This document shows positions 20,627 to 53,080 of a stretch of 55,881 nt of DNA, piece after piece; the first letter of the stretch is position 1; each line of letters opens with the position of its first letter. This DNA comes from an uncultured virus (IMG/VR IMGVR_UViG_3300030012_002808) (lineage: Duplodnaviria > Heunggongvirae > Uroviricota > Caudoviricetes), in the IMG/VR virus record IMGVR_UViG_3300030012_002808; one strand, 5' to 3'. The notes beneath the pieces are model-generated. The model was not told the DNA's origin. It ran no database searches and saw only the letters and a list, made by a program, of their open reading frames with translations. Position numbers and translations under genes: made by a program.

Positions 20627-20640
20627 ATAATATAGTAAAA
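20627..20640 (-). promoter_or_regulatory. Putative late promoter (TTTTACTATATTAT)
   Basis: Recurring motif, here abutting the ATG at 20625. Confidence 0.55.
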
Positions 20641-20667: not shown

Positions 20668-20700
20668 AAAAACGAAACCCCCACAAGTGTGAGGGTTTTG
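20668..20700 (-). terminator. Intrinsic terminator
   Basis: Minus-strand CAAAACCCTCAC-ACTT-GTGGGGGTTTCG followed by a T tract. Confidence 0.75.
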
Positions 20701-20738
20701 CCATTGTTAGCCACAGAAACCAACAAACTGCGACAATA
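20701..20738 (-). ncRNA. Candidate 3'-UTR antisense hairpin (loop UUUGUUGGUUU)
   Basis: Stem GUCGCAG/CUGUGGC with G-U pairs that work only on the minus strand. The 11-nt loop is complementary to AAACCAACAAA in late-gene start regions. Confidence 0.45.
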
Positions 20739-20740
20739 TT

Positions 20741-21196
20741 TTAACCTAATACAATTGTTCTTACTGTACCTGTAAATGAACCAGAACTTAATGTATAATT
20801 ACCTAATGAAGTACATATTACTTCAAACTCTTTAGTTACATCAGTATTAGTTGCAGTATCAATAATTAATACTTGTACATATTGCTGTTGTAATGTATGA
20901 GTACAAGCTACAGTACTAGTTGGAGGACCTGCTGTAATTGCTTGAGCAGTTACAGAAGTATCATCTCTTCCTGTAGTACTAGTACATATATAAGATACAA
21001 GTTTAGTAATTACTGAATCTAAATAATCATTACGTGAAATAACAGTGTCTGCCCCACAGACAATATCAGCACCAGTGTAAACAATACACTGTGCATTAAA
21101 TACCTCAGAACATGCTGGAGGACACGGTGGTACAACAGTGTAAGCACCTGGTGTACATCCGCATTGAGTAGTTGAATTACAATTTGAATTAGCCAT
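20741..21196 (-). CDS. Cys-rich putative fibre/decoration protein
   Basis: NAQCIVYTGADIVC resembles SSNCVIWQGPDIEC in the adjacent gene. Confidence 0.55.
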   Translation of the reverse strand: MANSNCNSTTQCGCTPGAYTVVPPCPPACSEVFNAQCIVYTGADIVCGADTVISRNDYLDSVITKLVSYICTSTTGRDDTSVTAQAITAGPPTSTVACTHTLQQQYVQVLIIDTATNTDVTKEFEVICTSLGNYTLSSGSFTGTVRTIVLG

Positions 21197-23134: not shown

Positions 23135-23148
23135 TATAATATACAAAT
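23135..23148 (-). promoter_or_regulatory. Putative late promoter (ATTTGTATATTATA)
   Basis: Recurring motif upstream of the ATG at 23121. Confidence 0.55.
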
Positions 23149-25805: not shown

Positions 25806-25943
25806 TTATCTTTTACTTTTTAATTTTGCTTCATATGAGCTTGCACATGTACTGCATACTTGTTTACCATCTGAAGCTGTTCTTTTTTGACACCCACATG
25901 ATAATCTTTTTCCGCAGTTCATACATCTTACTCCTGCTGCCAT
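25806..25943 (-). CDS. 45-aa Cys-rich (Zn-finger-like) microprotein
   Basis: Below the track cutoff. MAAGVRCMNCGKRLSCGCQKRTASDGKQVCSTCASSYEAKLKSKR; fills the gap exactly and its stop abuts the next ATG. Confidence 0.8.
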   Translation of the reverse strand: MAAGVRCMNCGKRLSCGCQKRTASDGKQVCSTCASSYEAKLKSKR

Positions 25944-25964
25944 AACTTGTTGGTTTAGTTTAGT

Positions 25965-26518: not shown

Positions 26519-26556
26519 AAAAAAGGGAGAGGAGAAACTAGATCTCACTCTCCCTT
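26519..26556 (-). terminator. Intrinsic terminator
   Basis: AAGGGAGAG/CTCTCCCTT stem with T tract after the 492-aa gene. Confidence 0.75.
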
Positions 26557-28055: not shown

Positions 28056-28093
28056 TTTTTTTCTTTTTTAAATTTTATAAATAAATAATATAC

Positions 28094-28108
28094 TATAATA
28101 TACTAAAA
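28094..28108 (-). promoter_or_regulatory. Putative late promoter (TTTTAGTATATTATA)
   Basis: Recurring motif upstream of the ATG at 28055. Confidence 0.6.
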
Positions 28109-28832: not shown

Positions 28833-29002
28833 TACTTCTTTTTCTTTCTTTTAGCGGCAATCTTTTTAAAAGTCTTAGCAAGTGTTTTAGCTTTACCTGT
28901 ACAAGTCTTCTTTGTAATAGGTGTGCATTTACCTTTAGTACCTCTCTTCTTAATAGAAGCACTAACTTTTTGCATCCACTTTTTATCTTTCTTTTTTGCC
29001 AT
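28832..29002 (-). CDS. 56-aa Lys-rich basic protein
   Basis: Below the track cutoff. MAKKKDKKWMQKVSASIKKRGTKGKCTPITKKTCTGKAKTLAKTFKKIAAKRKKKK; TAATG overlap with the next gene. Confidence 0.8.
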   Translation of the reverse strand: MAKKKDKKWMQKVSASIKKRGTKGKCTPITKKTCTGKAKTLAKTFKKIAAKRKKKK

Positions 29003-29004
29003 CT

Positions 29005-29070
29005 TTAATAATCCCAGTAGATAAAGATTTGATCATTCTCTTCTTCTGGATCTTTAAAAGTTTTGCTCAT
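29005..29070 (-). CDS. Possible 21-aa acidic peptide
   Basis: MSKTFKDPEEENDQIFIYWDY; follows a promoter-like motif and ends 2 nt before the next ATG. Confidence 0.4.
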   Translation of the reverse strand: MSKTFKDPEEENDQIFIYWDY

Positions 29071-29087
29071 ATATCAATATACAAAAA

Positions 29088-29375
29088 TTAACAATTCCAT
29101 TTACGTAGAGATTTGTTAATTCTTGAATTAGGATCATTTCTTTTTTTAGATCCTGTCATTTTCTTTTTCATACCTGACATTCTAGCACAAAAACTTTTTC
29201 TTCTCTTAGCAGCTTTACTATTTTTTTTAAGTTTAGAAGGTTTTGTTGTAACAGCAGTTTTAAGTTTACTTCCAGGGTTAGCCTTTCTGTAAGAAGCAAC
29301 ACCTTTTTTATTTAAGCCACCTGACTTACTTTTACCTTCCTTCCTAGTCCAAGCTGGAGTTTTTTTAGTTGCCAT
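29088..29375 (-). CDS. Small basic phage protein (RRKSFCARM type)
   Basis: K/R-rich; KEGK..GGLN, RRKSFCARM, SLRKWNC, recalled as a widespread aquatic phage family. Confidence 0.75.
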   Translation of the reverse strand: MATKKTPAWTRKEGKSKSGGLNKKGVASYRKANPGSKLKTAVTTKPSKLKKNSKAAKRRKSFCARMSGMKKKMTGSKKRNDPNSRINKSLRKWNC

Positions 29376-29391
29376 AATTTAAAACATTCTT

Positions 29392-29838
29392 TTAAAATGG
29401 TAATTTTTTACTTTTAAGTTTATTTTTAATTCTTTTTAGTTTAGCTTTAACTTTACCCTTACCGCCAATATTCAAGCCGTCACCACTACGTTTTGGACCA
29501 GACATACATTTACCCTTAACTACCTTACCACCTCTACAACCACCACCTCTAACTGCAGCACCTCCTAGTTGCATATACTGACCACCTAATTTTTGTTCTT
29601 TAATGTCATTAAAATACCCTAGTACTGCTGCGGGGTTTGTCATATTACCACCCATTTGCATTTTAGGTTTAGTGTGACCATAACCCTTCTTTTTCATACG
29701 GGTATGATCAGCCATAACTTTTGCTTTATAACCCTTTCCTGTTTTAGGATCATACATCATATGAGGTTTAAACTTCTTCTTAGCAGCACTCTTTTTAGCA
29801 CCACCTTTACTATATAAACTTTTTGGCATTGTATTCAT
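29392..29838 (-). CDS. Basic Gly/Lys-rich protein with QxGG motifs
   Basis: SKGG, MQMGG, MQLGG; KFKPHMMYDPKTGKG module. Confidence 0.75.
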   Translation of the reverse strand: MNTMPKSLYSKGGAKKSAAKKKFKPHMMYDPKTGKGYKAKVMADHTRMKKKGYGHTKPKMQMGGNMTNPAAVLGYFNDIKEQKLGGQYMQLGGAAVRGGGCRGGKVVKGKCMSGPKRSGDGLNIGGKGKVKAKLKRIKNKLKSKKLPF

Positions 29839-30107
29839 TATTTTCTTTTTTTAGTTGTTTTTCTTTTTCTAACTGAACTAGTTCTATTACCCATACCAAC
29901 TCTTTTCTTTTCAGCAACAACAGAAGCTTTTCTAGAACCTAAACCACCCCATGTCACTGGAGTTTTTTTAGAAACTTTTTTGCTAGGTCTACATTTTTTG
30001 ACGGCTTTATTCTTAGAAGATCCACATGGATTACCTTTTTCATCAGTCCACTTTTCTTTGAACCAACGTTTTAATGCTGCACCTTTAGCTGTCTTTCTAA
30101 CCGCCAT
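29838..30107 (-). CDS. Small basic protein (RWFKEKW type)
   Basis: LKRWFKEKW...CG...CRP motif; tight gene packing. Confidence 0.75.
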   Translation of the reverse strand: MAVRKTAKGAALKRWFKEKWTDEKGNPCGSSKNKAVKKCRPSKKVSKKTPVTWGGLGSRKASVVAEKKRVGMGNRTSSVRKRKTTKKRK

Positions 30108-30118
30108 TACTTTTTCTT

Positions 30119-30316
30119 TTAACTCTTGCCAGCTTTTCTTTTTCTACACTTAGCAATCATACCGCTAGCATAAGCAGATGGGAATACCTTATGAGCTCTT
30201 TTAGCTGCATAGTAACAAGAGTCTTTTTTACTCTTAGTTTTTTTCTTTTTAGATCCTCCTTTTCTAAAGAATTCTAAAATTTCACCGTCCGTATTTATTC
30301 TATTATAATTAGGCAT
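30119..30316 (-). CDS. Small basic protein (PSAYASG type)
   Basis: FRKGG followed by KKDSCY...PSAYASG...KCRK. Confidence 0.75.
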   Translation of the reverse strand: MPNYNRINTDGEILEFFRKGGSKKKKTKSKKDSCYYAAKRAHKVFPSAYASGMIAKCRKRKAGKS

Positions 30317-30318
30317 AA

Positions 30319-30507
30319 CTATAAGTTTCTTCTTAATGAGGCACCTCTGATAACTTTACCTTTGCCACATGAGCCACCATACTTTAATTGCTGTCCTTGA
30401 ATAGTTCTTGGATTATTACTATATCTAGCCATAGTCTTACCTGGGTAAGGATTTTGACCTCCATTTTTCATTTTGTGGGCACCGCCACATTTCATACATT
30501 TTGGCAT
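30319..30507 (-). CDS. Small basic protein with xGG motifs and GxxLRR C-terminus
   Basis: MKNGG, LKYGG, IRGASLRRNL. Confidence 0.7.
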   Translation of the reverse strand: MPKCMKCGGAHKMKNGGQNPYPGKTMARYSNNPRTIQGQQLKYGGSCGKGKVIRGASLRRNL

Positions 30508-30517
30508 ATCTTATATT

Positions 30518-30820
30518 TTATTTATTTTTTATACTTCTTCTTAGTGATCCACCTTTAATTAATTTTGGTTTAGATTTATTACTTGATTTAGGAGATCGTG
30601 ATACTTCATATAATACTGCACCATAAGGATCTGTCTCTAAAATCTTATATTGTACATCTGTGATACCTCTTTTTTTAAGAGCACGTCTTCTTGCATTATA
30701 AGCACTTCTACTAGGCGCCACTCTTTTACCCAAAACAGGTGAATAATCTTTACTTTTTTTAGCTGCTTTCTGAACTCCTTTAGCTATACCACCTTTCTGA
30801 TATTTTGTAAGGTGTTTCAT
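30518..30820 (-). CDS. Small basic protein with YQKGG and GxxLRR C-terminus
   Basis: KYQKGG...IKGGSLRRSIKNK. Confidence 0.75.
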   Translation of the reverse strand: MKHLTKYQKGGIAKGVQKAAKKSKDYSPVLGKRVAPSRSAYNARRRALKKRGITDVQYKILETDPYGAVLYEVSRSPKSSNKSKPKLIKGGSLRRSIKNK

Positions 30821-30822
30821 AA

Positions 30823-31203
30823 TTAATGCTTTTTACTTCGTCTTAATGACCCACCTTTCATCATCTTCATACCACCATACTGAGCATAGCCCATTTTATT
30901 ACGAACATCTGTTGGTAATGATCTTAGACCATTAAACTTTTTACCAGCTGGAACACTTTTCAAAGAACCGCCTGATTTAAATTTAGGTTTTTGAAGTTCA
31001 GGATACTTCATGCGATTCATATTGTCACCTTTTTTTACGTCTACCCCAAACATTCCAGGCTTATATGTATTCAGTGATTTACGTTTAAGTTTTGAAGAAG
31101 CAGGTGTTTTTCCAGCTCTTTTTACCTTTGCAAGTTTTCCAGTTGTTTTTTTAGCAGCCTTTGCAGCAAGTTTTGCAATACCACCTTTTTGATACTTTTT
31201 CAT
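30823..31203 (-). CDS. Small basic protein with YQKGG and GxxLRR C-terminus
   Basis: KKYQKGG, FKSGG, AQYGG, MKGGSLRRSKKH. Confidence 0.75.
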   Translation of the reverse strand: MKKYQKGGIAKLAAKAAKKTTGKLAKVKRAGKTPASSKLKRKSLNTYKPGMFGVDVKKGDNMNRMKYPELQKPKFKSGGSLKSVPAGKKFNGLRSLPTDVRNKMGYAQYGGMKMMKGGSLRRSKKH

Positions 31204-31205
31204 AA

Positions 31206-31574
31206 TTAATGTTTTCTAGATCTTCTTAAATTTTTACCTCTGATAACCCCACCTGATCTATATAACTTCATAGTAGGATTATTTTCTAACGCAGCTTTAA
31301 ACATATCAAGAGCATCTTGATTAGTAATATTAGGATTCTTTAAAAAACTCTTTACTTTCTTAGCATCACCAGAACTAATTACACCACGTTTTTGCATAGC
31401 CTGCCTCAAACCTTCTTTAGCATATTGGTCTGTATCATACCTTTTTCCTTTCCTACCTATAGTTGTAGTTCTCTCAGGTAATTTAGGTTTAGGTACTTTA
31501 ACTTTCTTTTTTGCAGCTTTAGCAGCACTACTTATAATCTTACCCCTTTGTGCTTTTGGTAAATACTTTTTCAT
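31206..31574 (-). CDS. Small basic protein (start revised to MKKYLPKAQRG)
   Basis: ATG at 31574 lies 1 nt after the upstream stop. LPKAQRG, YRSGG, IRGKNLRRSRKH. Confidence 0.75.
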   Translation of the reverse strand: MKKYLPKAQRGKIISSAAKAAKKKVKVPKPKLPERTTTIGRKGKRYDTDQYAKEGLRQAMQKRGVISSGDAKKVKSFLKNPNITNQDALDMFKAALENNPTMKLYRSGGVIRGKNLRRSRKH

Positions 31575-31575
31575 C

Positions 31576-32622
31576 TTAACCTTTTTTTCTACTTCTGCTA
31601 ATTTTTCTAACAATTTTTTTAGCACTCATAGGTCTTCCACCACCTTGGTTTTTCTTAGAAACACCTTTTCTAGTTACTCTCTGAGTTAATCCAGATGGAG
31701 AAGTTATAGTTCTACCTCTTTGAGCCTTTGTAAGTTGAGTTCCAGATCTTTTAGAAGGAAGATTTTTTCCACCTGGTATAGGTCTTGTAACTTTAGCTTT
31801 ACCTTTCCCAGTAGCTTTTTTTCCTGCTGCTTTTGTTGCTCTTTTAAGATCTTTTTTAGTTCTAGGCATTCCAGGAGGCATCATACTTGTACTTGATTTT
31901 TCCTTTTTAAGTGACTTTCTTAATACTTTTTTCATTCCTGGTGTAAGTTTTCCAATAGCACCGCCTTTTTGCATTTTAGGTCCTTTACCTTTTTTGCCCC
32001 TTTCTACATCTTTAGTTAGCATATACGATTTTCTTATTTTGTTGAGAAAATCAGAGTCTGGCTTTATTCCTCCTTTAATACTAATCGGTCTCTTCTTATT
32101 TTTTTTCTGAAGGCTCTTAGTAAGACTTGTGCCACCCTTTTGCATTTTAGTTGTCTTAGCATATTTTCTTACAGCTTTTTTAGCACTAACAGGTCTTCCC
32201 GCACCTTGATTCTTTTTAGCTACGCCTTTTCTATTTACTTTAGTTTTTAGTCCAGACTTAGAAGTTACAGTTCCACCTTTTTGCATTCCAAGGGTAGCAA
32301 GTTTTGTAGATGATTTTCTAAGAGGAGATACCTTACCACTAGCTTTAGCTCTACTTTTACCTGAAGCTATTTGTAAAGCTTCATTAAGTTTTGATCTCAT
32401 ATTAGCTCCAGTTGATCTTAAACCACCTCTAGTTAAGCTTTTTTTAGCAGCAGCAGTGCTTTCCATCTTTCTCCTAATTGGAGCCTTAGAAGTAGATTTT
32501 CTACCTGGAGTACCTTTACCTTTTCCAGCAGCTTTTACAAGCCTTGTCATTTTTGCTAATCCTTTTTGGCCTTTTGGTAATCTTTTTTTTGCACCACCAT
32601 AACCATACTTTTTCATTGCCAT
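31576..32622 (-). CDS. 348-aa extremely basic protein (histone H1/protamine-like composition) with six xQxG(G)-type motifs
   Basis: Very few acidic residues. YGYGG, PKGQKG, MQKGG x3, KAQRG; one internally duplicated module. Confidence 0.75.
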   Translation of the reverse strand: MAMKKYGYGGAKKRLPKGQKGLAKMTRLVKAAGKGKGTPGRKSTSKAPIRRKMESTAAAKKSLTRGGLRSTGANMRSKLNEALQIASGKSRAKASGKVSPLRKSSTKLATLGMQKGGTVTSKSGLKTKVNRKGVAKKNQGAGRPVSAKKAVRKYAKTTKMQKGGTSLTKSLQKKNKKRPISIKGGIKPDSDFLNKIRKSYMLTKDVERGKKGKGPKMQKGGAIGKLTPGMKKVLRKSLKKEKSSTSMMPPGMPRTKKDLKRATKAAGKKATGKGKAKVTRPIPGGKNLPSKRSGTQLTKAQRGRTITSPSGLTQRVTRKGVSKKNQGGGRPMSAKKIVRKISRSRKKG

Positions 32623-32641: not shown

Positions 32642-33658
32642 TTAACTATTCCAATATGCTTCTGAAGTTTTAATTAAACCTTTTAAAATATCTTCATTTA
32701 AAGGATCCTTTAAAAACTCAAGAACATCAGATACATTTCTACCTAACATAACATTTTGCTTTGCATGATAAATATATCCATCTGCTTTTGTGACAATCTC
32801 TTTATAAAAACTAGAGTCTTTAATAATAGATCTAATTTTTAAAGTTTCCATATCACATTTTACTGCATCTAAGAAAGTTTTTACTGCTCTCTCCATGTTG
32901 CTGTCAGATCCTTCTGCATGAATATATTCATCCATATTTTCATACAGGATATCTAATGGTGTTGATTTTTTGTATTGCGTACTATTAACATCTACAACTT
33001 TTGCTACATAGAAAAGTTTAGTGCTATTTTTATCAAATAATTTTTGTAGTTCTGATAATGCCTTATTTCTAAGTTTTTTGTATTCAGTTCTACTAGATAC
33101 TGTCTCTTCTTCTTTATCTAAGAAAAATTTAGGCGGCTTTGGTTTTGTTTTTGCATCCTCATAACTTTTTGCAATTAAAGAAAACCCCCCTGCTTCTATA
33201 GCATATAGTTTAATTCTATCATATGGATCTGACATATTTAAAAAAGTTGGTTCATTACCTACTTTGATTTCTATCTTATTCCAAAATTCTGAATTATCGG
33301 GTTTAAGAAGTTTTACTTTATTCCAAAAGTCTTTATCTTCTGGATCAATAATATTAGAAGCTAATTCTGCTTCTAGATCAGCTACAGCTTTTCTTATCTG
33401 TCTTGTTTTAGCTTCTCTAGCTTCTTTAGAAAGTTTTTTAACTTCTGGAGCAAATTCATTAAGTCCTGTCAAATATCTATTGATACCATTAATTTCTAGA
33501 CAAGCCAATTGTTCTTGGTGTTTTACACCATCAAATAAACTTAATCCATAATTTTCTAGACCCATGTTATCTACTCGTGCATTAAAATAAGGCTTAATAG
33601 CAACTTTTGATTTAGTTCCTGATGCTACCTGTACCATTGTAAAATTATTATCTGCCAT
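32642..33658 (-). CDS. Capsid-module protein of unknown function
   Basis: Intact 338-aa ORF immediately downstream of the major capsid gene. Confidence 0.6.
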   Translation of the reverse strand: MADNNFTMVQVASGTKSKVAIKPYFNARVDNMGLENYGLSLFDGVKHQEQLACLEINGINRYLTGLNEFAPEVKKLSKEAREAKTRQIRKAVADLEAELASNIIDPEDKDFWNKVKLLKPDNSEFWNKIEIKVGNEPTFLNMSDPYDRIKLYAIEAGGFSLIAKSYEDAKTKPKPPKFFLDKEEETVSSRTEYKKLRNKALSELQKLFDKNSTKLFYVAKVVDVNSTQYKKSTPLDILYENMDEYIHAEGSDSNMERAVKTFLDAVKCDMETLKIRSIIKDSSFYKEIVTKADGYIYHAKQNVMLGRNVSDVLEFLKDPLNEDILKGLIKTSEAYWNS

Positions 33659-33696
33659 TGGTTTTTGTTTTTGTTGGTTATTATTTGTTGATTATT

Positions 33697-33730
33697 AAAA
33701 AAAAAGGGAGAGGAACAGCCCTCCCCCTTT
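33697..33730 (-). terminator. Intrinsic terminator after the major capsid gene
   Basis: GGGGGAGGG...CCTCTCCC stem followed by T9 on the minus strand. Confidence 0.8.
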
Positions 33731-33749
33731 TCAAGAATTTATATTCAGA

Positions 33750-35363
33750 TTAGAATGATCCTCCAGTAACTGGGTTTCTCATAACAATCTTCAATACCTT
33801 AGTTGGGTCTTTTACCCATACAGCTGGCATTGTTTGAGACATCATAACTCTATACCCATTGAATTGTCCAGAAGACTGGAATCCTTGAGCACGACCCATA
33901 TAGTCCATTGTACCATTTTGATACCACCACTTAAGTTGGTTATCCCACTCTAACTTCAACAAGAAGATGTTGTCATTAGTATTATCAGTGATGTCAAAGA
34001 TAATGAATGAATAAGAAGATAATGGGAATCCATCAATGATTGGGTTCTCAATATCATTAGTATTTACATTATCAAATGCTGGGTTAAGTACAAACTTAAC
34101 ATTAGCAAGGAAAGGAATTACATAGCTAGTGTAAGCAAAACCAAAGTTCAAGTCCATTCCTTGACCAGTGATTGCACCTATATCAGCAGCTTGAATTACA
34201 AGACCTGATGCTACAGCATCTCTCTTAATAGCTTCATTTACCATTCTCATTCCACCCATACCAGTTTGAACAATCAATTGTCTACCTGGATCTGGACCTT
34301 GGAATTCAACTTTACCGTTAAAGAAGTTATAAATCTCAGAACGGAATAAGTCAAGGTTAAAGTTATTCTTGTTGTATACTCTTTTGAAAGAGTTATCAAG
34401 CTGTTGCCAAAGACCTACAGATAATCTTAAATCATCTGGTCCGTCTTGCCTAACTCTACCACCTTGTCCCCACATTAGGTAACACTCAATATCAGAAGCA
34501 ATCTTAGAAAGATGTGCAGCTTCCATTTGAGTAAGGAAAGTTCTAGAAAGATCACCATTATCAAATGCTCTCTTTACTTTATCTTTACCCATTGTTTTTA
34601 CCATGTCATCTAAAGATGCTACAGCAGGATCCATATTTTTATCAAAAGTTCTCCAGATCTCAGTTACAGGAACTGTACCATCTGCATTCATTCCACCTTT
34701 GATCATAAGATCAGCTCTAGAAGAAACTGAATAGTGAACATGAGCTTCTGCACCACCTACATAATTGTAGAATTCACGGAAACCTGTTTTAGTAGTGATG
34801 TCAGAGAATCTTTCACCATACTCACCTCTAGCAGAACCTTTTCTAAAGAATTTAGTTCCATTTGCTAAAAATGCTCTGTCAAATGAAGCAGCAGTATTAT
34901 TGTTGACCATTTGTACAGTATAAATAAAACCATCTCCCATTGGAAGAATGTCTTCATCTGTAATGTAAAGTTCAGCACCATTGTATTTATCATAAGTGAT
35001 AATATCACCGTGACCAAAGTCTTTACAGCTCATCTTAATGCGGAAAGTTGTACCATCTACACCAAGAACACCATCTCCTTCAATATCCTCAATAATATAA
35101 GGAAGATCATTAGATACAGGAGTTTGCCACTTATACTCACCACGAGCATTATCTACCATGATTACATTTTTACCACCAAAGCTAGACATTTGATAAAGGG
35201 GCATCTCTACCTTCTGAGACATAGCCCATAGGTCCACTGGACCTAAGTCCATCGGTTCTGCATCCTTCAACATGTTAACCAAGTGGTAAGAGTCTACGTG
35301 TGAACTTGCGTTGTACGCTGTATCCCGTAGAAAGATACCATTGTTTAAAACTGGAGTTGCCAT
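33750..35363 (-). CDS. Major capsid protein (crAss-like)
   Basis: 537 aa; order terminase-portal-scaffold-capsid; EYKW, LMWG, GLWQQL, TGMGG patterns; many C-ending codons; followed by a terminator. Confidence 0.8.
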   Translation of the reverse strand: MATPVLNNGIFLRDTAYNASSHVDSYHLVNMLKDAEPMDLGPVDLWAMSQKVEMPLYQMSSFGGKNVIMVDNARGEYKWQTPVSNDLPYIIEDIEGDGVLGVDGTTFRIKMSCKDFGHGDIITYDKYNGAELYITDEDILPMGDGFIYTVQMVNNNTAASFDRAFLANGTKFFRKGSARGEYGERFSDITTKTGFREFYNYVGGAEAHVHYSVSSRADLMIKGGMNADGTVPVTEIWRTFDKNMDPAVASLDDMVKTMGKDKVKRAFDNGDLSRTFLTQMEAAHLSKIASDIECYLMWGQGGRVRQDGPDDLRLSVGLWQQLDNSFKRVYNKNNFNLDLFRSEIYNFFNGKVEFQGPDPGRQLIVQTGMGGMRMVNEAIKRDAVASGLVIQAADIGAITGQGMDLNFGFAYTSYVIPFLANVKFVLNPAFDNVNTNDIENPIIDGFPLSSYSFIIFDITDNTNDNIFLLKLEWDNQLKWWYQNGTMDYMGRAQGFQSSGQFNGYRVMMSQTMPAVWVKDPTKVLKIVMRNPVTGGSF

Positions 35364-35393: not shown

Positions 35394-36689
35394 TTAAAAA
35401 CCTCTGCTAAACATATTTTGTTTTTTCCGAGGAACTGTCTGTTTTTTTCTTGTTGTTCTTCTTGAACTTGTTGAAACATCTTTTTTAACTGTTGCTGAAG
35501 AACTTAATTTTCTTGATTGTTCAGCTGTTTTCAATTGTCTTGCAGTTTTTCTTACAGCTTCATCAGCTCCAACAGATCTTACTTTAGTTTTGTAACCTTT
35601 TGGATCTGCTAATAACCATAATGCCTCTGCAATAAGATCATGTCTAGGTTCTACAAACTGGTACTTTTCTAATAAATGCCCTAATAAATTTGTAGGTTTC
35701 CCAGATATTGAAGGGTAATTAGGTTGAACTAAACCAGAAAATAAAAGACTTTGTGTCTTTTTATCTAATTTTAAATCATCTAATTGGCCTTGAGCAAGTG
35801 TATTATATACATTATCTTGATATGCTTTTGCTTGTTCAGCTTGTTGAGCTTTTTTCTGTTCTTGCTCTGCTAGTTGTTGTGCAACAATTGTTTCTTGCAT
35901 TTTATCTAACTTTGGCTTAAACTGTTTAGCTTTTTTACCAAGCCTGTCAAGATCTGCCCAATCTTGTATTTCAGCTTCTATTTCTTCAGCTGTACCAAAT
36001 CTTGTAGCATGAAGATATTGTCTTGCAATTTCAGCTTGATGATTTTCATCTTCAGGATTTAGATCCATAGTATCTTCTACTTGGGCTAAAGTTCTAAATA
36101 AACTTTTTAAATCCTGACCTCCATCTGCAACATACTTTGCTGCAACTTGAAGTTCTTCAGGTAAAGATTGAAAAAATTCTCTAGGAGTATCTTGTCTAAT
36201 CTTTTCTTCCCTTTGCTGAAAATTTGTTTCAAATAACTCTCTGAAATCTTTAGCTGTATAATCTTCTAAATCCTTATCATCATCAAATGGTAATAAAGAT
36301 CCTTCTTCTATCATTTTATTAGCTAATTCAACAAGGCCGCTCTTATCAACCCTGGGTCTTCCTGATACAGTTTCTTCATTTTCTTCTTGTTCTGAGATCA
36401 TCTCATCCAATTCAGAAATAGTTTCTTCTGCAGTTTCAGTAGGTGTTACCTCTACTTCTTCTGAAGTTGTTTCAACAGGTTTGTCAATGAACGTTGTGTC
36501 TACTTCCTTTTCCTTTGAAAAGACTGTATTTTTTTCTTCTAAATCTTCTTCAGGTAGCATGACACTTTCTGCTCCTGGTTGTCCAAAGATTTCATCAATA
36601 TTTATATCTACTTCCTCTACCGTTGTAGATTCTTGTATTTTAGACTCAGTATTTTGTACTTCGTCTGAAGTTGATTTTTCTTCACTCAT
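35394..36689 (-). CDS. Putative scaffolding protein
   Basis: Highly acidic N-terminus, coiled coil, basic tail; between portal and capsid genes. Confidence 0.65.
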   Translation of the reverse strand: MSEEKSTSDEVQNTESKIQESTTVEEVDINIDEIFGQPGAESVMLPEEDLEEKNTVFSKEKEVDTTFIDKPVETTSEEVEVTPTETAEETISELDEMISEQEENEETVSGRPRVDKSGLVELANKMIEEGSLLPFDDDKDLEDYTAKDFRELFETNFQQREEKIRQDTPREFFQSLPEELQVAAKYVADGGQDLKSLFRTLAQVEDTMDLNPEDENHQAEIARQYLHATRFGTAEEIEAEIQDWADLDRLGKKAKQFKPKLDKMQETIVAQQLAEQEQKKAQQAEQAKAYQDNVYNTLAQGQLDDLKLDKKTQSLLFSGLVQPNYPSISGKPTNLLGHLLEKYQFVEPRHDLIAEALWLLADPKGYKTKVRSVGADEAVRKTARQLKTAEQSRKLSSSATVKKDVSTSSRRTTRKKQTVPRKKQNMFSRGF

Positions 36690-36711
36690 TTTTGTTGGTT
36701 TTGTTTATATA

Positions 36712-36725
36712 ATAATATACTAAAA
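36712..36725 (-). promoter_or_regulatory. Putative late promoter (TTTTAGTATATTAT)
   Basis: Recurring motif upstream of the scaffold/capsid genes. Confidence 0.6.
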
Positions 36726-36784: not shown

Positions 36785-39535
36785 CTAAGTAGCATCATTT
36801 TGATTTCTAACATCATATTTATTTTTATTTTCTCTAGCTATTTGTAGTTGTTTATCTGCTATTTCTTTTTGAGCTTGTATTTTTTCACGCTCAATTTGAT
36901 TTTTAGCAGATTCATTATTCATTCTATTTACTTCCTTTTCTCTTTGCAAGTCTGTTTGTGTTTGATATTGTTCAGTATCTCTAATATCTTTCATAGCATC
37001 TTGGAAGTCAGATTGCATATTTTTATCAATATCTGCCATTGATCCATAACCTGCAGCCCTAATTTCAGCAACAAGAATATCCTTTCTTCTTTCTTTCTCA
37101 GCTTCTTGAGCTTCTGCATCCAATCTCATTTGCTCTTGTTCTTTCTGAGCCTGTAATTGTTGTTCTTGCATTTGCTGTTGTTGCTGTTGCTCTTGTTGTT
37201 TTTGTTGTTGTTGTTTTTGTTCAGATGTTTTTAAAACTGTATTTAGTCCAGCAATAGAATCTGATTGAATAATTTTACCTAAGTCATATATACTAGCACC
37301 TGTAGTATTATTCTGCATAGCCATTTGTTTTAATTGCTCTAATACAGCTCTATGGTTTGCAGTTGTAGTACAAAAGATATTGAGATCTCTCATCAAAAGA
37401 TCTGTACCATTAATTTGAAAATTAACTTTTTCATCCAGTGATGTTATATAAGTCAATCTTGCAGATGGTTTAGTACTATGATAATATTGAGCCAGATCTG
37501 TTCTCATTTCATGTACTCTAGGCATTAGATAATCTGAGTGTTGTACAAAGTACATTTCTGTTTGGGCATATGATGCATTGGCCGCTTGTTCTACACCAGT
37601 AGCTGTCATTTGTGATAATTGCTGCCCCATTCTTTGTGGATTAACACCAATTACCTCATATGCTTGTTGTTTAAAATGATTAGCTAATTGAACTCTAGAC
37701 ATTAATCTATTAGTCTGATCTAAATCAAGTTTCTGAAAATGCTGGAAGTTTAATGCATTTTCTGTATTTGTAATAGTAGTATCTAGTGGTAGCATTTGGA
37801 AATCTTTCATAGCTACATAAGCTTTAGATAAATTACCTTTACCCCAGTCCTCACCTAATGAATGTTTAGGTAATGCATTTTGATCTAATAAAATTACAGT
37901 ACCTAATTCATCTACTAAAATATCAGCTATTTGATTATTTACAATATTAAAACCTATTTGATATGGTTTCATTAAATCAATAAGAGCTGTTGATTTAGTG
38001 TTTCTATCAGAAAATACAGCACCCTCTACAGGTAGTTTGCAACCATATAAACTATTCTCACCTTTAAACTGAAATTTAAGAGGATTTAAACGATTAGTAT
38101 TTATACCTAAATACATAGGTGCAAGTCCTCCTGGATTATTCATACCCCAATAGCTAGGAATATTTGGTCCTATTTTTATACCACCCCAAACCTCATTGAT
38201 CCAGATCCAATCAATATGTTCTCCAAATAATAAATTTTCTTTATTCTTATTTTTAAATAACCTAGTATCATAAATAGGTTTATCTGTAATTTTGTAATCT
38301 TCTGTAACAATCTCGTTTAATATTTGACCATCTTCAGTTACTTTAACTAGATGACCTAGTTTTCTTTGTGACTTCCAGTAAGATTGTGTAACCCGTAATA
38401 AGTTTGCATCAGGTGAATCTAACATACTTTCACTTTCACCTATAATATCTGCAACTACATCACCTCCGTCATATAATCCTGAATCACCCATAAATGATGT
38501 ATACTGACGCATGGCTAAAGATGGTCTATCTGTATTCCATTGATGTGATTTAGTAGCATCATAAAAAGAACCATCATTTTGCTGACCAGTAATAGTATAA
38601 CCAGCAGATCTTACAGGATAAATTGATTCTAAAGATTCTAGCTGCTCTTCAGTCATTAAAAATCCAAATTTATCTATAACATCAGCTGCTGTATACATAT
38701 CTGTTTTACCAACCCACTGGCCATCTGAGATATATCTAGTATCAGGAGATTTATGGTAAAAAGTTAATGCAGGATTCCAGAGCTCTACATCATAATCATC
38801 TTCCATCATATGAAAATGCCAGAACTCTCTATCTGTAATTAACATATCACGAAAGCCTCTTTCTTCAAGCTCATCCATTCTAAATCTTTCAATATCTACT
38901 TTATGTTGATGTTCAGCCCACTGTTCCACCATAGATCTATAGTCTTTCTTAAAGAACTGTTCTATTTCAGGTAAGCTTTTGATATTATCTGAAGACATTT
39001 GTTGTTGTGCTTCTTGAGAGTTAGGATCTAATCCTTGAGCAACCATGGCGGCCATTATCTTAACTTGTGCATCTGCCATTAATGTTTTTTCTACCTCAGC
39101 TCTTTTCTGTTCAAGCATTTCATTATATGAAAATTCATCAACAGCTCTATAAGTTAATTTAGTAGATCTTTTTGCAAACTCTGCAACAAGTACATTTACA
39201 ACATTAGGAATAATTGGATAAAATCTTAGCTCAAGAGCATTTGAAGTATCATCTAAAAGATTTTCTACAATATCTTTCATTTCATTATCATCTTCGATAA
39301 TGTAATCTGTTCTATCAATAATACCTTTTGCTAACTTATAATTTTTCATTAGCCTTCTTGAGTTTCGTCTTAATTGTTTAAGACCATTCCACTCAAGCCA
39401 GTCTAAATTCCAAGCAGCCCATTCTTGTGTTTTATCTTTTTTAGGTAGAAACTGAAGAGGTTGAGTTAAAGTACCCATCCTTTCTTGTTTAGCTTTAGCG
39501 CCTTTTTTTAATTGAAGTGCATTAAATACCTGCAT
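36785..39535 (-). CDS. Portal protein
   Basis: 916 aa after terminase; YPIIPN, IGVNPQRMG, Q-rich C-terminal coiled coil. Confidence 0.8.
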   Translation of the reverse strand: MQVFNALQLKKGAKAKQERMGTLTQPLQFLPKKDKTQEWAAWNLDWLEWNGLKQLRRNSRRLMKNYKLAKGIIDRTDYIIEDDNEMKDIVENLLDDTSNALELRFYPIIPNVVNVLVAEFAKRSTKLTYRAVDEFSYNEMLEQKRAEVEKTLMADAQVKIMAAMVAQGLDPNSQEAQQQMSSDNIKSLPEIEQFFKKDYRSMVEQWAEHQHKVDIERFRMDELEERGFRDMLITDREFWHFHMMEDDYDVELWNPALTFYHKSPDTRYISDGQWVGKTDMYTAADVIDKFGFLMTEEQLESLESIYPVRSAGYTITGQQNDGSFYDATKSHQWNTDRPSLAMRQYTSFMGDSGLYDGGDVVADIIGESESMLDSPDANLLRVTQSYWKSQRKLGHLVKVTEDGQILNEIVTEDYKITDKPIYDTRLFKNKNKENLLFGEHIDWIWINEVWGGIKIGPNIPSYWGMNNPGGLAPMYLGINTNRLNPLKFQFKGENSLYGCKLPVEGAVFSDRNTKSTALIDLMKPYQIGFNIVNNQIADILVDELGTVILLDQNALPKHSLGEDWGKGNLSKAYVAMKDFQMLPLDTTITNTENALNFQHFQKLDLDQTNRLMSRVQLANHFKQQAYEVIGVNPQRMGQQLSQMTATGVEQAANASYAQTEMYFVQHSDYLMPRVHEMRTDLAQYYHSTKPSARLTYITSLDEKVNFQINGTDLLMRDLNIFCTTTANHRAVLEQLKQMAMQNNTTGASIYDLGKIIQSDSIAGLNTVLKTSEQKQQQQKQQEQQQQQQMQEQQLQAQKEQEQMRLDAEAQEAEKERRKDILVAEIRAAGYGSMADIDKNMQSDFQDAMKDIRDTEQYQTQTDLQREKEVNRMNNESAKNQIEREKIQAQKEIADKQLQIARENKNKYDVRNQNDAT

Positions 39536-39540
39536 AATTA

Positions 39541-41754
39541 CTATTTAATATTTTTGAAAGCAGACCTTTTTACAGATGTACCATTAATTCTCTTTCTTTT
39601 CCTACCCATATGTCTAAACGGACTACTCTTTAATTTATACAAATTTTCTGACTTTTGCAACTTTTTAGCATCATCATCCATGATAGTTCTCTTTCTATAA
39701 CCTCTATTAGATTCTTGAATTCTCATAAATGCTACAAGCGCTGCAAAAGACACGAGCCTATCCACATTGACCCCATCTGCATATTCTCTCATTTCTTTTA
39801 TAAGCATGGGATCAGGAATTCTTTCTATCCCGTATGTTTTTCTAACTATAGTACCATCCTCTTTTGTTTCTACATCTATCTCTTCTTTTGTAAACTCAAT
39901 AGTATACGACAACAAATGAGCCTTAAATAATGTACCAGTATTCTTCCAACCATATTCTTGGAATACATTAGCATTAGCACCAAGATCTTTTAAAAACATA
40001 ATTTGACTTTTAGGTACAAGATACTTTTGCTTCTTTCTGTGAATCATATAATTTATAAATAATGATATGTTATTTTCTATAACTGTCCACGCATTATACC
40101 ACTCAATTATATGTTCTAATCTTTCATGTGTTCTATTTATATCATCAAACCTTCCGCACCATGCAGCAACTATTTTAGCTGGTTCTATATAAGTTTGCGT
40201 TTCTATACCAGTAACTTTTGTTACCTCTACAGAATTTTTCATTACATAAATAGAACATAATGATTCTGAGGTTGTAGTTTTACCTTCTGAAACAGGGTCA
40301 ATAGATGCATAGTAAGTACCAAAAGAAGGGTTGTCTACAGGTCTTTCCCAAACTACCAAAACACCTTCCTTATTTTCTGTTTTCTTTTTTATTGGAAAAT
40401 CTTTTATAGGTTGTTTATTAGACCTTTTAGATTGCAGCTTACCATTTTCATCTTCATACAAATCTATAAACTCATAACCATATGTTTTATCTTCTATTCT
40501 TTGCTGTTGTGCAGCTAGCAGATGTGTAGGAAATACAGAAATAGATCTATGGTCAAATGCTTCTTTTATATTTCTTGGATGCTGAGATATTCTCAATTGA
40601 TAATCTTCTGGAGCCAACTCTTTTTTCCAATCTATAAATTGTTGTTCTAAAGCTTTAAGCGCTTCTTCTACTTTAGAGTTGCCATACTGGTCTATATGTG
40701 GAGGCATAGACCATTGTTCAGGAATAAATAAACCTGACAAACCAGTAGTACCTTTATCATCTATTAAATCAGTTTCTACAGCATAAATATCTTTAGATGT
40801 AGGATTCTGAATCATATCTTTAAGCGGGTTACATTGTGACAAATCACCCACGGATCCTGCTGCTATAAATAATCCTGTAGTAGTAAGACCAGATCTCATT
40901 GCTGGTCTCATGTACTCATATGTCTTATCCATTTTAGGTGCAATACCTGCTTCCTCATGAAAGAAGTATTTAACAGGACCCCCTACACCATTTGTTGGAT
41001 CTTTTTCAAATGACATTGCTTGTATAGTTCCTTTAAGTCCTACTTCAGTTTTTCTATTGCCCTTTCTAACCTCAATCTTTTGTTGCCACATCATTATTTT
41101 GTTTGGGTTCATAGGTCTATACCATGCAGTATGTTCATTTAGAAATGCTGCATATTCATCTAAAAACTTCCAAGATCCTTTCTCATTGATATAATCTTTA
41201 AGACTAGCGCCTATTTTTAATGTCACCCCAGCTTCAAACCATTGCTGATTAATAAGCTTTGCCATATGGTAATAAGAAGATGCTATCTGACGTTTCTTTA
41301 GTATAGCAACATGTTTATAGTTTAACTCTGCTAGCATCTCATACAATGCCATATGATACTGAGCATCCCTAATATCAGCAAACCCAAATTGCTGTATTTC
41401 TTTATTAAAGATTGGTAGAAAGTTTAACCACATATAATAATCACGGGTTATATACCAGGTTCCTTTTTTAGATTTATATATTACACCCTTTCTACATTTC
41501 TTTTTTTCACCATCCCAGTATTTAATAAAATCTTTTGATTTAAATGCTGATGTGCAATAAACACCTGTATCTTTAAACTTAGTTGCTTGTGAATTAAATT
41601 GTAAACTAGTTTTATCAAAATTATACTGACCAGGTTCTTTAAATAAAACTCTTATATAATCTGCAAAGTCTTCTCTGCTATCAAAGTCTGTAGTAGTCCA
41701 TACACCATTATCCCAAGTTGGGATATCCTCATATATTTCTGTATTATTGATCAT
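39541..41754 (-). CDS. terL: Terminase large subunit
   Basis: LKKRQIASS (Walker A-like), FFHEEAG (Walker B), ASIDP and IENN nuclease motifs, terminal DRL. Confidence 0.9.
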   Translation of the reverse strand: MINNTEIYEDIPTWDNGVWTTTDFDSREDFADYIRVLFKEPGQYNFDKTSLQFNSQATKFKDTGVYCTSAFKSKDFIKYWDGEKKKCRKGVIYKSKKGTWYITRDYYMWLNFLPIFNKEIQQFGFADIRDAQYHMALYEMLAELNYKHVAILKKRQIASSYYHMAKLINQQWFEAGVTLKIGASLKDYINEKGSWKFLDEYAAFLNEHTAWYRPMNPNKIMMWQQKIEVRKGNRKTEVGLKGTIQAMSFEKDPTNGVGGPVKYFFHEEAGIAPKMDKTYEYMRPAMRSGLTTTGLFIAAGSVGDLSQCNPLKDMIQNPTSKDIYAVETDLIDDKGTTGLSGLFIPEQWSMPPHIDQYGNSKVEEALKALEQQFIDWKKELAPEDYQLRISQHPRNIKEAFDHRSISVFPTHLLAAQQQRIEDKTYGYEFIDLYEDENGKLQSKRSNKQPIKDFPIKKKTENKEGVLVVWERPVDNPSFGTYYASIDPVSEGKTTTSESLCSIYVMKNSVEVTKVTGIETQTYIEPAKIVAAWCGRFDDINRTHERLEHIIEWYNAWTVIENNISLFINYMIHRKKQKYLVPKSQIMFLKDLGANANVFQEYGWKNTGTLFKAHLLSYTIEFTKEEIDVETKEDGTIVRKTYGIERIPDPMLIKEMREYADGVNVDRLVSFAALVAFMRIQESNRGYRKRTIMDDDAKKLQKSENLYKLKSSPFRHMGRKRKRINGTSVKRSAFKNIK

Positions 41755-44095: not shown

Positions 44096-44386
44096 TTAGG
44101 TTCTTTTAAGTTTACTTCTTTTTAGTGGTTTTTTATCTTGAGTTGGTTTAGATTTTGGCTTATCTACATCCTCATCTGAACCTTCTGGTGGTTGCGTACT
44201 AGCCATTAGCATTTGCCATTGATATGCAAAGTTTGCTCTTTTAAATCTAGCCTCTTCCACATCAGTTAGAAGTTGTTCATATTTAAGTTGTGATTCTAAA
44301 TAAGGAATAGAAGAATCATAAAATTCTTTCATTTCTTCTTTTCTTTGATCTAGCTCTTCAGCTGATAAATTTTCTGGATTTTCCAT
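44096..44386 (-). CDS. Hypothetical coiled-coil protein
   Basis: Intact ORF with A-rich start region and an upstream promoter. Confidence 0.7.
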   Translation of the reverse strand: MENPENLSAEELDQRKEEMKEFYDSSIPYLESQLKYEQLLTDVEEARFKRANFAYQWQMLMASTQPPEGSDEDVDKPKSKPTQDKKPLKRSKLKRT

Positions 44387-44407
44387 TGGTTTAAATTTTT
44401 ATTTAAT

Positions 44408-52600: not shown

Positions 52601-53080
52601 ATGCCAACAGAAGCAAACAATTTTACAGAAAGAATTACAAACAGAAACTTAAACGCAAGTTCTGAACAAACTATAGCCTCATCAGCATTACTTAGAATAA
52701 TGCAAGAGTCTGATAGTCTTTATTACAATCCTAGAGACACAGGTTGGGTGCAGAAGAAAATAGATGCCTTTAAACAGAACTTACGTTCACATATAACATT
52801 AAGCAGAACTAATGATGAAAGTCATTGGCCTGAAGAATATGCAAAGATGTTGAGAGAAGAACTTGAGTATATTGAAACTTGTATTGAGTACAATGACAAG
52901 ACAGGTAATATGCCAATTGGCACAACAGAAGCAGATCTGTCAAAACCTCTTGAAGAACCAACAAAAGGAGTTGATTATATTGAAGGACCAACAACAATAG
53001 ATGAATCTAAGTCATTTAAAAAAGTTGGTCACATAGATTTGAGCAAACCTGACAGTAAACCTGAATGGGACAAAGAGTAG
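52601..53080 (+). CDS. Early hypothetical protein, 159 aa
   Basis: Flanked by the promoter-like element and a terminator. Confidence 0.75.
   Translation: MPTEANNFTERITNRNLNASSEQTIASSALLRIMQESDSLYYNPRDTGWVQKKIDAFKQNLRSHITLSRTNDESHWPEEYAKMLREELEYIETCIEYNDKTGNMPIGTTEADLSKPLEEPTKGVDYIEGPTTIDESKSFKKVGHIDLSKPDSKPEWDKE

What the first reader, a model, noticed from the sequence alone, without database searches (positions are those of the whole stretch)
20668..20738. 3'-UTR hairpin whose loop is antisense to the start regions of three late genes
Seen: the minus-strand RNA just before a terminator folds as GUCGCAG-[UUUGUUGGUUU]-CUGUGGC. The loop is the exact 11-nt complement of AAACCAACAAA directly upstream of the scaffold ATG (about 36691-36701). 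It also matches 10 contiguous nt upstream of the 338-aa gene (about 33670-33679) and of the Zn-finger microprotein (about 25947-25956). Inference: a trans-acting sRNA or long-range pairing that tunes head-protein stoichiometry or timing.
Basis: partly seen in the sequence, partly recalled or inferred. Interest (0 to 1): 0.72.

Follow-up and report, generated by a model that had tools for sequence, protein, structure and literature searches.

The report
Conserved anti-leader hairpin in crAss-related phages
A small RNA hairpin at the end of a tail-gene message in a large group of aquatic phages shows a loop that mirrors a short tag in front of a few phage genes, including two head-assembly genes, so it probably pairs with those messages to turn down their translation, though neither the RNA nor its effect has been observed.

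Summary
A 7-bp stem with an 11-nt loop (20710-20734, minus strand) lies between a tail-gene stop codon and a terminator. Its complement sits before the scaffold-like gene, the 338-aa gene (homologue of crAss001 gp33) and a 45-aa Cys-rich gene; a shorter box overlaps the start of a 96-aa gene. All 16 records picked by protein match alone carry the hairpin, as do 9 of 9 far more distant loci and the cultured phages phi4:1, phi17:2 and Lbo-JY46. Stems turn over while the loop core stays fixed. The box is gene-specific (13-15 of 15 in four families; 0 of 15 for capsid and portal) and not enriched in leaders of one bacterial MAG. Where the loop changes (phi4:1, L438, Lbo group), leaders tend to change with it (permutation p about 0.012; five lineages do not). 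crAss001, phi14:2 and Fpv1 lack both parts. Best reading: a 3'-end antisense RNA that masks the A-rich initiation zone and dampens assembly-factor synthesis. Pairing is well supported by conservation; repression, processing and expression are inferred. This scan noted the element on at least nine other windows; no paper describing it was found.

The parts
20710..20734 (-). Conserved RNA hairpin, 7-bp stem with G-U pairs
20717..20727 (-). 11-nt U/G loop, core UUGGUU, the presumed antisense seed
   Evidence: loop core kept in all 23 aligned hairpins
20704..20708 (-). AACAA tail that can pair back with the loop (competing fold); common in the near clade, absent in distant ones
20668..20698 (-). 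Intrinsic-terminator-like stem (20675-20698) and U-run
20741..21196 (-). 151-aa gene with a Cys-rich N-terminus, last gene of the tail-fibre-like block; stop codon 6 nt before the stem; length 78-611 aa in relatives
20628..20637 (-). Promoter-like box for the next operon (193-aa gene), downstream of the terminator; function inferred from recurrence before genes
36691..36701 (-). Target box in the leader of the 431-aa scaffold-like gene (35394-36689); scaffold role inferred from its place between portal and major capsid genes
33670..33679 (-). Main target box before the 338-aa gene (32642-33658; homologue of crAss001 gp33)
33684..33693 (-). Second, wobble-compatible box before the 338-aa gene; two boxes are common in relatives
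25947..25956 (-). Target box before the 45-aa Cys-rich (Zn-finger-like) gene at 25806-25943
44386..44392 (-). Short box AAACCAA overlapping the start codon of the 96-aa gene (44096-44386), a fourth conserved target family; weak predicted pairing in this genome
33701..33732 (-). Terminator-like hairpin between the major capsid gene and the 338-aa gene
33750..35363 (-). Major capsid gene; its leader lacks the box (internal negative control)
36713..36722 (-). Promoter-like box just upstream of the scaffold leader; similar boxes at 28086-28105 and 23137-23146 would start transcripts that end at the hairpin
   Evidence: inferred promoters; the box is not enriched window-wide

Best explanation
The hairpin is a phage-encoded antisense regulator carried at the 3' end of the tail-fibre-block mRNA. 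Shown by sequence comparison: it folds on the sense strand, holds a fixed loop on a freely changing stem, and has a complementary box in the start regions of a fixed set of phage genes (scaffold-like, gp33-like, Cys-rich microprotein, 96-aa gene, and in many relatives one early gene and one more late gene). Inferred: late in infection the hairpin-terminator RNA accumulates, either as a processed fragment of about 70 nt or as the end of the intact mRNA; its loop pairs over 7-11 bp with the unstructured A-rich leaders, covering the adenines at -3, -6, -12 and -13 that Bacteroidota ribosomes rely on; translation of these genes falls while the capsid gene, which follows the scaffold gene but has no box, is spared. 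The result would be a delayed negative feedback that sets the ratio and timing of assembly factors against virion proteins.
For: Presence in 16 of 16 records chosen by protein match only and 9 of 9 distant loci, plus phi4:1, phi17:2 and Lbo-JY46. Of 120 pattern hits, 71 precede a terminator and 70 of these keep all four stem pairs the pattern did not fix, against 0 of 49 other hits. 18 distinct stems show 3-6 pair types per column with 22 G-U cells; only 104 of 126 cells would pair on the opposite strand. AACCAA starts within -30..+15 in 13, 15, 14 and 14 of 15 members of the four families and in 0 of 15 for capsid, portal and the 492-aa gene; it peaks at -11 but ranges from -29 to +15, and moves from leader to first codons in the 96-aa family. 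AAACCAA is the commonest of 21 letter permutations in phage leaders (79 of 1712) and 42 of 54 large families have none; in one Bacteroidota MAG it is in 6 of 297 leaders, no more than its permutations. Own loop pairs better with own leaders than swapped loops do, p 0.012 for scaffold, 0.12 for the gp33-like gene, 0.73 for the capsid control. In phi4:1 the native loop ranks gp063 first of 29 leaders; the window's loop does not place it in the top 8. Both parts are missing from the 50-kb late regions of crAss001, phi14:2 and Fpv1. Precedent for repression by pairing at Bacteroidota initiation regions: FopS (PMC11697453, passages); initiation determinants: PMC6847099 (passages).
Against: No transcript evidence: metatranscriptome contigs cannot show ends, strand or level, and coverage over the hairpin bin is low. 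No conserved internal promoter, so a free small RNA needs processing that was not shown. Covariation is partial: L433, L434, L435, L436 and L439 give no cognate advantage, the gp33-like gene alone is not significant, the 12 lineages are related, and phi4:1 and L438 are not resolved as independent. Predicted duplexes are short; in distant phages some are only -6 to -8 kcal/mol, and a 7-bp stem closing an 11-nt loop limits how much of the loop can pair without opening. In this genome the loop is masked about half the time by its own tail. The 7-bp stems counted were selected for pairing. The sign of regulation is not tested. Target functions are mostly unknown.
Confidence: 0.62

Rival explanations
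1. The pairing is real but positive or structural: the hairpin binds the leader to stabilise the message or to help load ribosomes, acting as a phage-made adaptor in a phylum whose ribosomes ignore Shine-Dalgarno sequences.
For: The box peaks at a fixed distance (start near -11), much like a ribosome-binding site; it marks genes that begin transcripts or follow terminators.
Against: Sites also lie at -29 to -20, across the start codon and at +6 to +15, which suits occlusion better than loading. The -11 register also places adenines at -3, -6, -12 and -13, so it can be explained by selection for a good initiation region (inference from PMC6847099). Structure near the start lowers translation in Flavobacterium. 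No second conserved module for ribosome binding was seen; stem and tail vary.
Confidence: 0.13
2. Pairing acts mainly in cis: the 3' end of a long late transcript folds back on leaders of the same molecule, rather than a diffusible RNA acting on other messages.
For: The microprotein leader probably shares a transcript with the hairpin (promoter-like box at 28086-28105); no internal promoter for a separate small RNA.
Against: A box stands before an early gene on the opposite strand in 7 of 11 members, which cannot be in cis; terminator-like hairpins lie between the scaffold or gp33-like leaders and the hairpin; the distance is 13-16 kb in coupled transcription-translation.
Confidence: 0.1
3. 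The box is a protein-binding site or a phage-specific translation enhancer, and the loop has another partner (a protein, tRNA 3' ends as in T-boxes, or host RNAs); the complementarity is incidental.
For: A/C-rich leaders and U/G-rich loops have low complexity, so complementarity is cheap; the core AACCAA is far more conserved than its flanks; several lineages show no covariation; the loop contains UGGU, which could pair with an ACCA end (own knowledge).
Against: It needs two independent conserved elements that happen to be complementary, occur together across one clade and are both absent from three outgroup phages. Cognate pairing beats swapped pairing for scaffold but not for capsid. The conserved loop letters run 5' of UGG, where a tRNA end has no partner.
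Confidence: 0.12
4. The hairpin is only a pause or stability element beside the terminator and the match is chance.
For: It always adjoins a terminator; no expression evidence.
Against: A stability hairpin would not keep an 11-nt weakly closed loop fixed while its stem turns over; chance is rejected for the boxes.
Confidence: 0.03

Closest known systems
3'-UTR-derived base-pairing sRNAs of bacteria, e.g. CisR of Vibrio cholerae (PMC13250501, abstract and outline read); CpxQ, SroC, DapZ (recalled)
   Same: Sits between a stop codon and an intrinsic terminator, short seed, several initiation-region targets; CisR represses a phage mRNA.
   Different: Here the RNA is encoded by the phage and the targets are its own genes; the seed is in a hairpin loop; Hfq dependence is not expected in Bacteroidota (recalled); processing is not shown.
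FopS and GibS sRNAs of Bacteroides thetaiotaomicron (PMC11697453, passages)
   Same: Same host phylum; pairing to translation initiation regions represses translation; several targets share a seed match.
   Different: FopS are host RNAs with their own promoters and a single-stranded 5' seed; no Rfam family matched the window.
C4 antisense RNA of phages P1 and P7 (named in PMC8201110, two passages; mechanism recalled), with P22 sar, lambda OOP and P4 CI (recalled)
   Same: Phage-encoded RNA that controls phage genes by pairing; C4 acts in trans through loop sequences (recalled).
   Different: Those control lysogeny or immunity at one locus; this one points at several late assembly genes and one early gene, and has no Rfam match.
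Translational autoregulation of the P22 scaffolding protein (recalled)
   Same: Scaffold synthesis is uncoupled from coat synthesis after transcription.
   Different: That control is protein-mediated; here an RNA loop from a tail-gene message is the candidate regulator.

Membership tests
3'-UTR-derived base-pairing sRNA | Located between a stop codon and an intrinsic terminator on the mRNA strand | tested here: met
   Stem starts 0-21 nt after the stop in 21 of 22 hairpins (51 nt in L433), terminator follows
3'-UTR-derived base-pairing sRNA | Conserved, exposed seed | tested here: met
   Loop core fixed on variable stems; stem probability 0.7 or more in 18 of 23, about 0.44 in the window
3'-UTR-derived base-pairing sRNA | Conserved complementary sites in target initiation regions | tested here: met
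3'-UTR-derived base-pairing sRNA | Seed and targets change together | tested here: inconclusive
   p 0.012 for scaffold, 0.12 for the gp33-like gene, related lineages, five without cognate advantage
3'-UTR-derived base-pairing sRNA | Accumulates as a discrete short transcript (own promoter or processing) | tested here: inconclusive
   No conserved internal promoter; RNA contigs cannot show ends
3'-UTR-derived base-pairing sRNA | Changes target expression, restored by compensatory mutation | not testable with these tools
   needs reporters or phage genetics
C4, FopS, T-box or any other Rfam family | Match to the family covariance model | tested here: not met
   0 matches at E up to 1 over the whole window against 4227 families
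Cis-encoded antisense RNA (sar, OOP type) | Transcribed from the opposite strand of its target, long perfect complementarity | tested here: not met
   Hairpin lies 5-24 kb from the targets on the same strand; 7-11 nt match
Generic Bacteroidota initiation signal | Present before many genes of phage and host | tested here: not met
   42 of 54 large phage families have none; 6 of 297 leaders in 400 kb of one Chitinophagaceae MAG, level with permutations
crAss-related podophage (Crassvirales relatives) | Homologous portal, capsid and gp33-like genes in the same order | tested here: met
   the hairpin-bearing phages form a clade apart from crAss001, phi14:2 and Fpv1, so membership of the order Crassvirales itself is not claimed

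The most novel reading that the evidence does not exclude
The unprocessed 3' end of the tail-fibre mRNA is itself the regulator: an mRNA-mRNA kissing system, kept across a whole clade of Bacteroidota phages, that couples tail-fibre supply to the synthesis of head-assembly factors, with the targets carrying a dedicated address box in place of the Shine-Dalgarno sequence that these hosts do not read; in its boldest form the pairing helps rather than blocks initiation.
Probability: 0.2. Interest if true: 0.9.

Novelty: new variant of a known kind. Interest (0 to 1): 0.72.

Why it matters
RNA control of phage gene expression is known mostly from lysogeny switches and from phage or host sRNAs aimed at the other partner. 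A hairpin that a phage clade has kept while its capsid proteins diverged to about 28% identity, aimed at the phage's own assembly genes, would be a new layer of morphogenesis control and a natural probe of how initiation is regulated without Shine-Dalgarno pairing. The element and a co-changed target are present in cultured Cellulophaga phages phi4:1 and phi17:2, so the idea can be tested directly.

Tried and rejected
Rfam scan: no match. No tRNA or tmRNA in the window. A GTDB scan for the near-clade hairpin gave 0 hits; a capsid scan gave 3 MAG contigs, too few to name a host. Apparent second hairpin copies in G005 and G013 are the antisense of an early coding region and were rejected as chance; the L407 hit is in coding sequence and was dropped from the 25 hairpins, as was the weak Lbo-JY46 stem, leaving 23. 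A loop-tail pseudoknot was rejected on geometry (0-1 nt linker) and the tail is missing in distant phages. The MAFFT alignment of hairpins misplaced the stems, so pairs were counted in a fixed 7-bp register. RNA runs: 3 of 6 listed hold part of the region, all from one study; laid as contigs they cover 27, 18 and 23 of 30 bins, the hairpin bin has depth 1.89, 0 and 0, and none of the 24 pieces shown (74 not shown) spans the hairpin; this neither supports nor refutes a small RNA. Substitutions at target sites are too rare in the core to test a wobble bias. The 338-aa protein: no Pfam family above cut-off, no solved relative, only unnamed Atlas clusters, model pLDDT 83 with structural matches to uncharacterised crAss-like proteins and only a weak 58-residue likeness to a RecA domain, E 0.27; function remains open. 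Direct BLASTP to phi4:1 gp063 and gp065 found nothing; homology came from profiles. A capsid scan with phi4:1 returned only phi4:1 itself. The sigma-70 promoter scan was uninformative. PMC11054128 (passages) and PMC10136315 (passages) do not mention such an RNA under the terms searched.

Full report
Setting. The window is the late module of a podophage related to crAss-like phages. Terminase (39541-41754), portal (36785-39535) and major capsid (33750-35363) genes lie on the minus strand. The nearest cultured capsid matches are Lbo-JY46 and Cellulophaga phages phi4:1 and phi17:2 at about 28% identity. Capsid and portal trees put the window's group, the Lbo-JY46 group and phi4:1 in one clade apart from crAss001, phi14:2 and Fpv1; long branches make the inner order unsure. 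A Bacteroidota host is inferred from these relatives and from A-rich leaders without Shine-Dalgarno motifs; it was not determined.

Observation. The hairpin is at 20710-20734 with its loop at 20717-20727, 6 nt after the stop of a 151-aa gene and just before a terminator-like stem at 20675-20698. The loop's exact complement is at 36691-36701; ten contiguous bases match at 33670-33679 and 25947-25956. The 9-mer occurs 5 times against 0.82 expected, and shuffled leaders never gave three carriers in 20,000 trials. In this genome the loop-out fold competes with a fold in which the loop pairs with the AACAA tail, about 0.44 against the rest.

Conservation of the hairpin. A strict pattern found one copy in 23 of 30 records. 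The seven misses were checked in fetched DNA and all carry variants: a 10-nt loop in G016 and G034, a 13-nt loop in G019, and a new stem in G007-G010. Sixteen of the 30 had been picked by protein match alone, and all 16 carry it. A collection scan stopped at 120 places; 71 precede a terminator, and 70 of those keep all four outer pairs that the pattern left free, against 0 of the other 49. Among 23 distinct hairpins there are 18 distinct 7-bp stems with 3-6 pair types per column and 22 G-U cells; these stems were selected for pairing, so the informative part is the turnover and the strand, since only 104 of 126 cells would pair on the opposite strand. The gene in front varies from 78 to 611 aa in 15 records, so the element follows the end of the block and not one coding sequence. 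Nine distant loci found with the Lbo-JY46 capsid all have the loop before a terminator, with imperfect stems in five. Lbo-JY46, phi4:1 and phi17:2 have it after their tail-gene block. The 50-kb late regions of crAss001, phi14:2 and Fpv1 have neither this loop before a terminator nor the box before their scaffold-like and gp33-like genes.

Conservation of the targets. In 15 records (three near-duplicates dropped from 18; simple gene calling), AAACCAA lies in the last 27 nt of 79 of 1712 leaders: 14 of 15 for the 338-aa gene, 14 of 15 for the microprotein, 13 of 15 for the scaffold-like gene, 7 of 11 for a 120-aa early gene on the other strand, 4 of 8 for a 94-aa late gene; 42 of 54 large families have none. 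With the window -30..+15 the 96-aa gene joins at 14 of 15, the site lying in the leader, across the start codon or in the first codons. Over 160 capsid loci, AACCAA within -30..+26 was found in 77 of 78 and 77 of 78 scaffold starts, 63 of 64 and 62 of 64 starts of the 338-aa gene, 35 of 43 microprotein starts (second set only), and 0 of 79, 0 of 76 capsid and 0 of 76, 0 of 78 portal starts. The core is what is kept: in the second clade only 7 of 64 leaders of the 338-aa gene have the full 8-mer. In 400 kb of one Chitinophagaceae MAG, 6 of 297 leaders carry AAACCAA, no more than its permutations; this is one genome and perhaps not the host. The 338-aa protein is a homologue of crAss001 gp33; profile searches link it to phi4:1 gp063 and the scaffold-like protein to gp065. 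Neither is annotated as found in virions by mass spectrometry, unlike their neighbours, which fits assembly factors.

Do loop and leaders change together? Partly. phi4:1 and L438 have U in place of the first loop G, and their gp063 or scaffold leaders have A in place of the matching C. Lbo-JY46 and L431 end the loop in G, and the L431 scaffold leader has the matching C. Across 12 lineages own loops pair better with own leaders than swapped loops do: p 0.012 for scaffold and for both genes summed, 0.12 for the gp33-like gene alone, 0.73 for capsid leaders. L433, L434, L435, L436 and L439 show no advantage in the summed test, L433 has a loop change unmatched in either leader, the lineages are related, and phi4:1 and L438 are not resolved as separate events. 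In phi4:1 the native loop ranks gp063 first and gp065 sixth of 29 leaders.

Mechanism. Shown: a sense-strand RNA hairpin, a fixed loop, gene-specific complementary boxes confined to the initiation zone, joint presence and absence, partial covariation. Inferred: the RNA accumulates late, pairs with the leaders and blocks initiation. Boxes peak at -11, covering adenines at -3, -6, -12 and -13 that promote initiation in Flavobacterium, where structure near the start lowers translation (PMC6847099, passages). FopS sRNAs repress Bacteroides mRNAs in this way (PMC11697453, passages). Predicted net pairing of the 73-nt hairpin-terminator RNA is -8.9, -9.7 and -14.0 kcal/mol with the three main leaders, -0.8 with the 96-aa gene, -4.3 with capsid and -2.3 with portal (these dimer folds open the stem). 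No internal promoter is conserved, so the RNA is either cut from the tail-block mRNA or acts as its end. The early-strand target argues for action in trans. Since scaffold and capsid genes are adjacent and only the first has the box, the simplest purpose is to uncouple assembly factors from virion proteins late in infection. Metatranscriptome contigs from one study cover the late region but cannot show a small RNA.

Known or new. No Rfam family matches. Nine literature searches (listings only unless stated) returned no description of this RNA. The closest are 3'-UTR sRNAs such as CisR (PMC13250501, abstract), FopS, and phage antisense RNAs such as C4 (PMC8201110, passages; review PMC12197685, first of six parts). 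The element could be among the candidate viral RNAs of PMC10690425: three of its six supplementary files were searched without a hit and the alignment archives could not be read. It works like a base-pairing 3'-end sRNA; membership is unproven until a transcript and an effect are seen. This scan has noted the same element on other DNA; those notes are not independent support.

Verdict. Real, deeply conserved and probably regulatory; a new variant of a known kind; interest 0.72, helped by the presence of a co-changed loop and target in cultured phages.

Noticed in passing
window 28975-32622 (minus strand): A run of about ten short Lys/Arg-rich genes, several with KGG-type repeats, between the 338-aa and 232-aa genes; some match PHROG families of unknown function. 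Possibly DNA-condensing core proteins.
   Followed up: no
window 52601-52615 (plus strand): The start of a 159-aa early-strand ORF gives a predicted 9-bp duplex with the loop (-11.2 kcal/mol, fourth of 60 leaders); the ORF has no homologue in the 17 fetched records.
   Followed up: partly
window 36713, 28086-28105, 23137, 20628, 51381, 4418 (minus strand): A recurring TAGTATATTA-like box before late genes, conserved in relatives, probably a late promoter element; not enriched window-wide.
   Followed up: partly
window 33701-33732 and about 26520-26556: Strong terminator-like hairpins directly before the 338-aa and 180-aa genes with no promoter-like box between hairpin and start, implying read-through or processing.
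   Followed up: no
L440 about 9810 and 9938: Two copies of the loop sequence about 130 nt apart in one long intergenic region of the Lbo-like phage G039; the stem around the terminator-proximal copy is weak.
   Followed up: partly
L343 leaders of gp046 and gp047 (phi4:1): Besides gp063 and gp065, two tail-block genes, one of them the gene directly in front of the hairpin, carry the core box, hinting at self-regulation.
   Followed up: no
L009, L012, L448-L450, just behind the hairpin: In the second clade a GUUGG word recurs between hairpin and terminator in place of the AACAA tail.
   Followed up: no
L342 (PP438436.1): Lbo-JY46 is deposited as a Leptolyngbya phage, yet its late module, A-rich leaders and this hairpin match Bacteroidota phages, so the host assignment may deserve a check.
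   Followed up: no
window protein 32642-33658: A 58-residue part of the predicted model resembles a RecA domain (rmsd under 2 A, E 0.27); crAss001 gp33 is annotated as holding a dsDNA-binding domain.
   Followed up: partly
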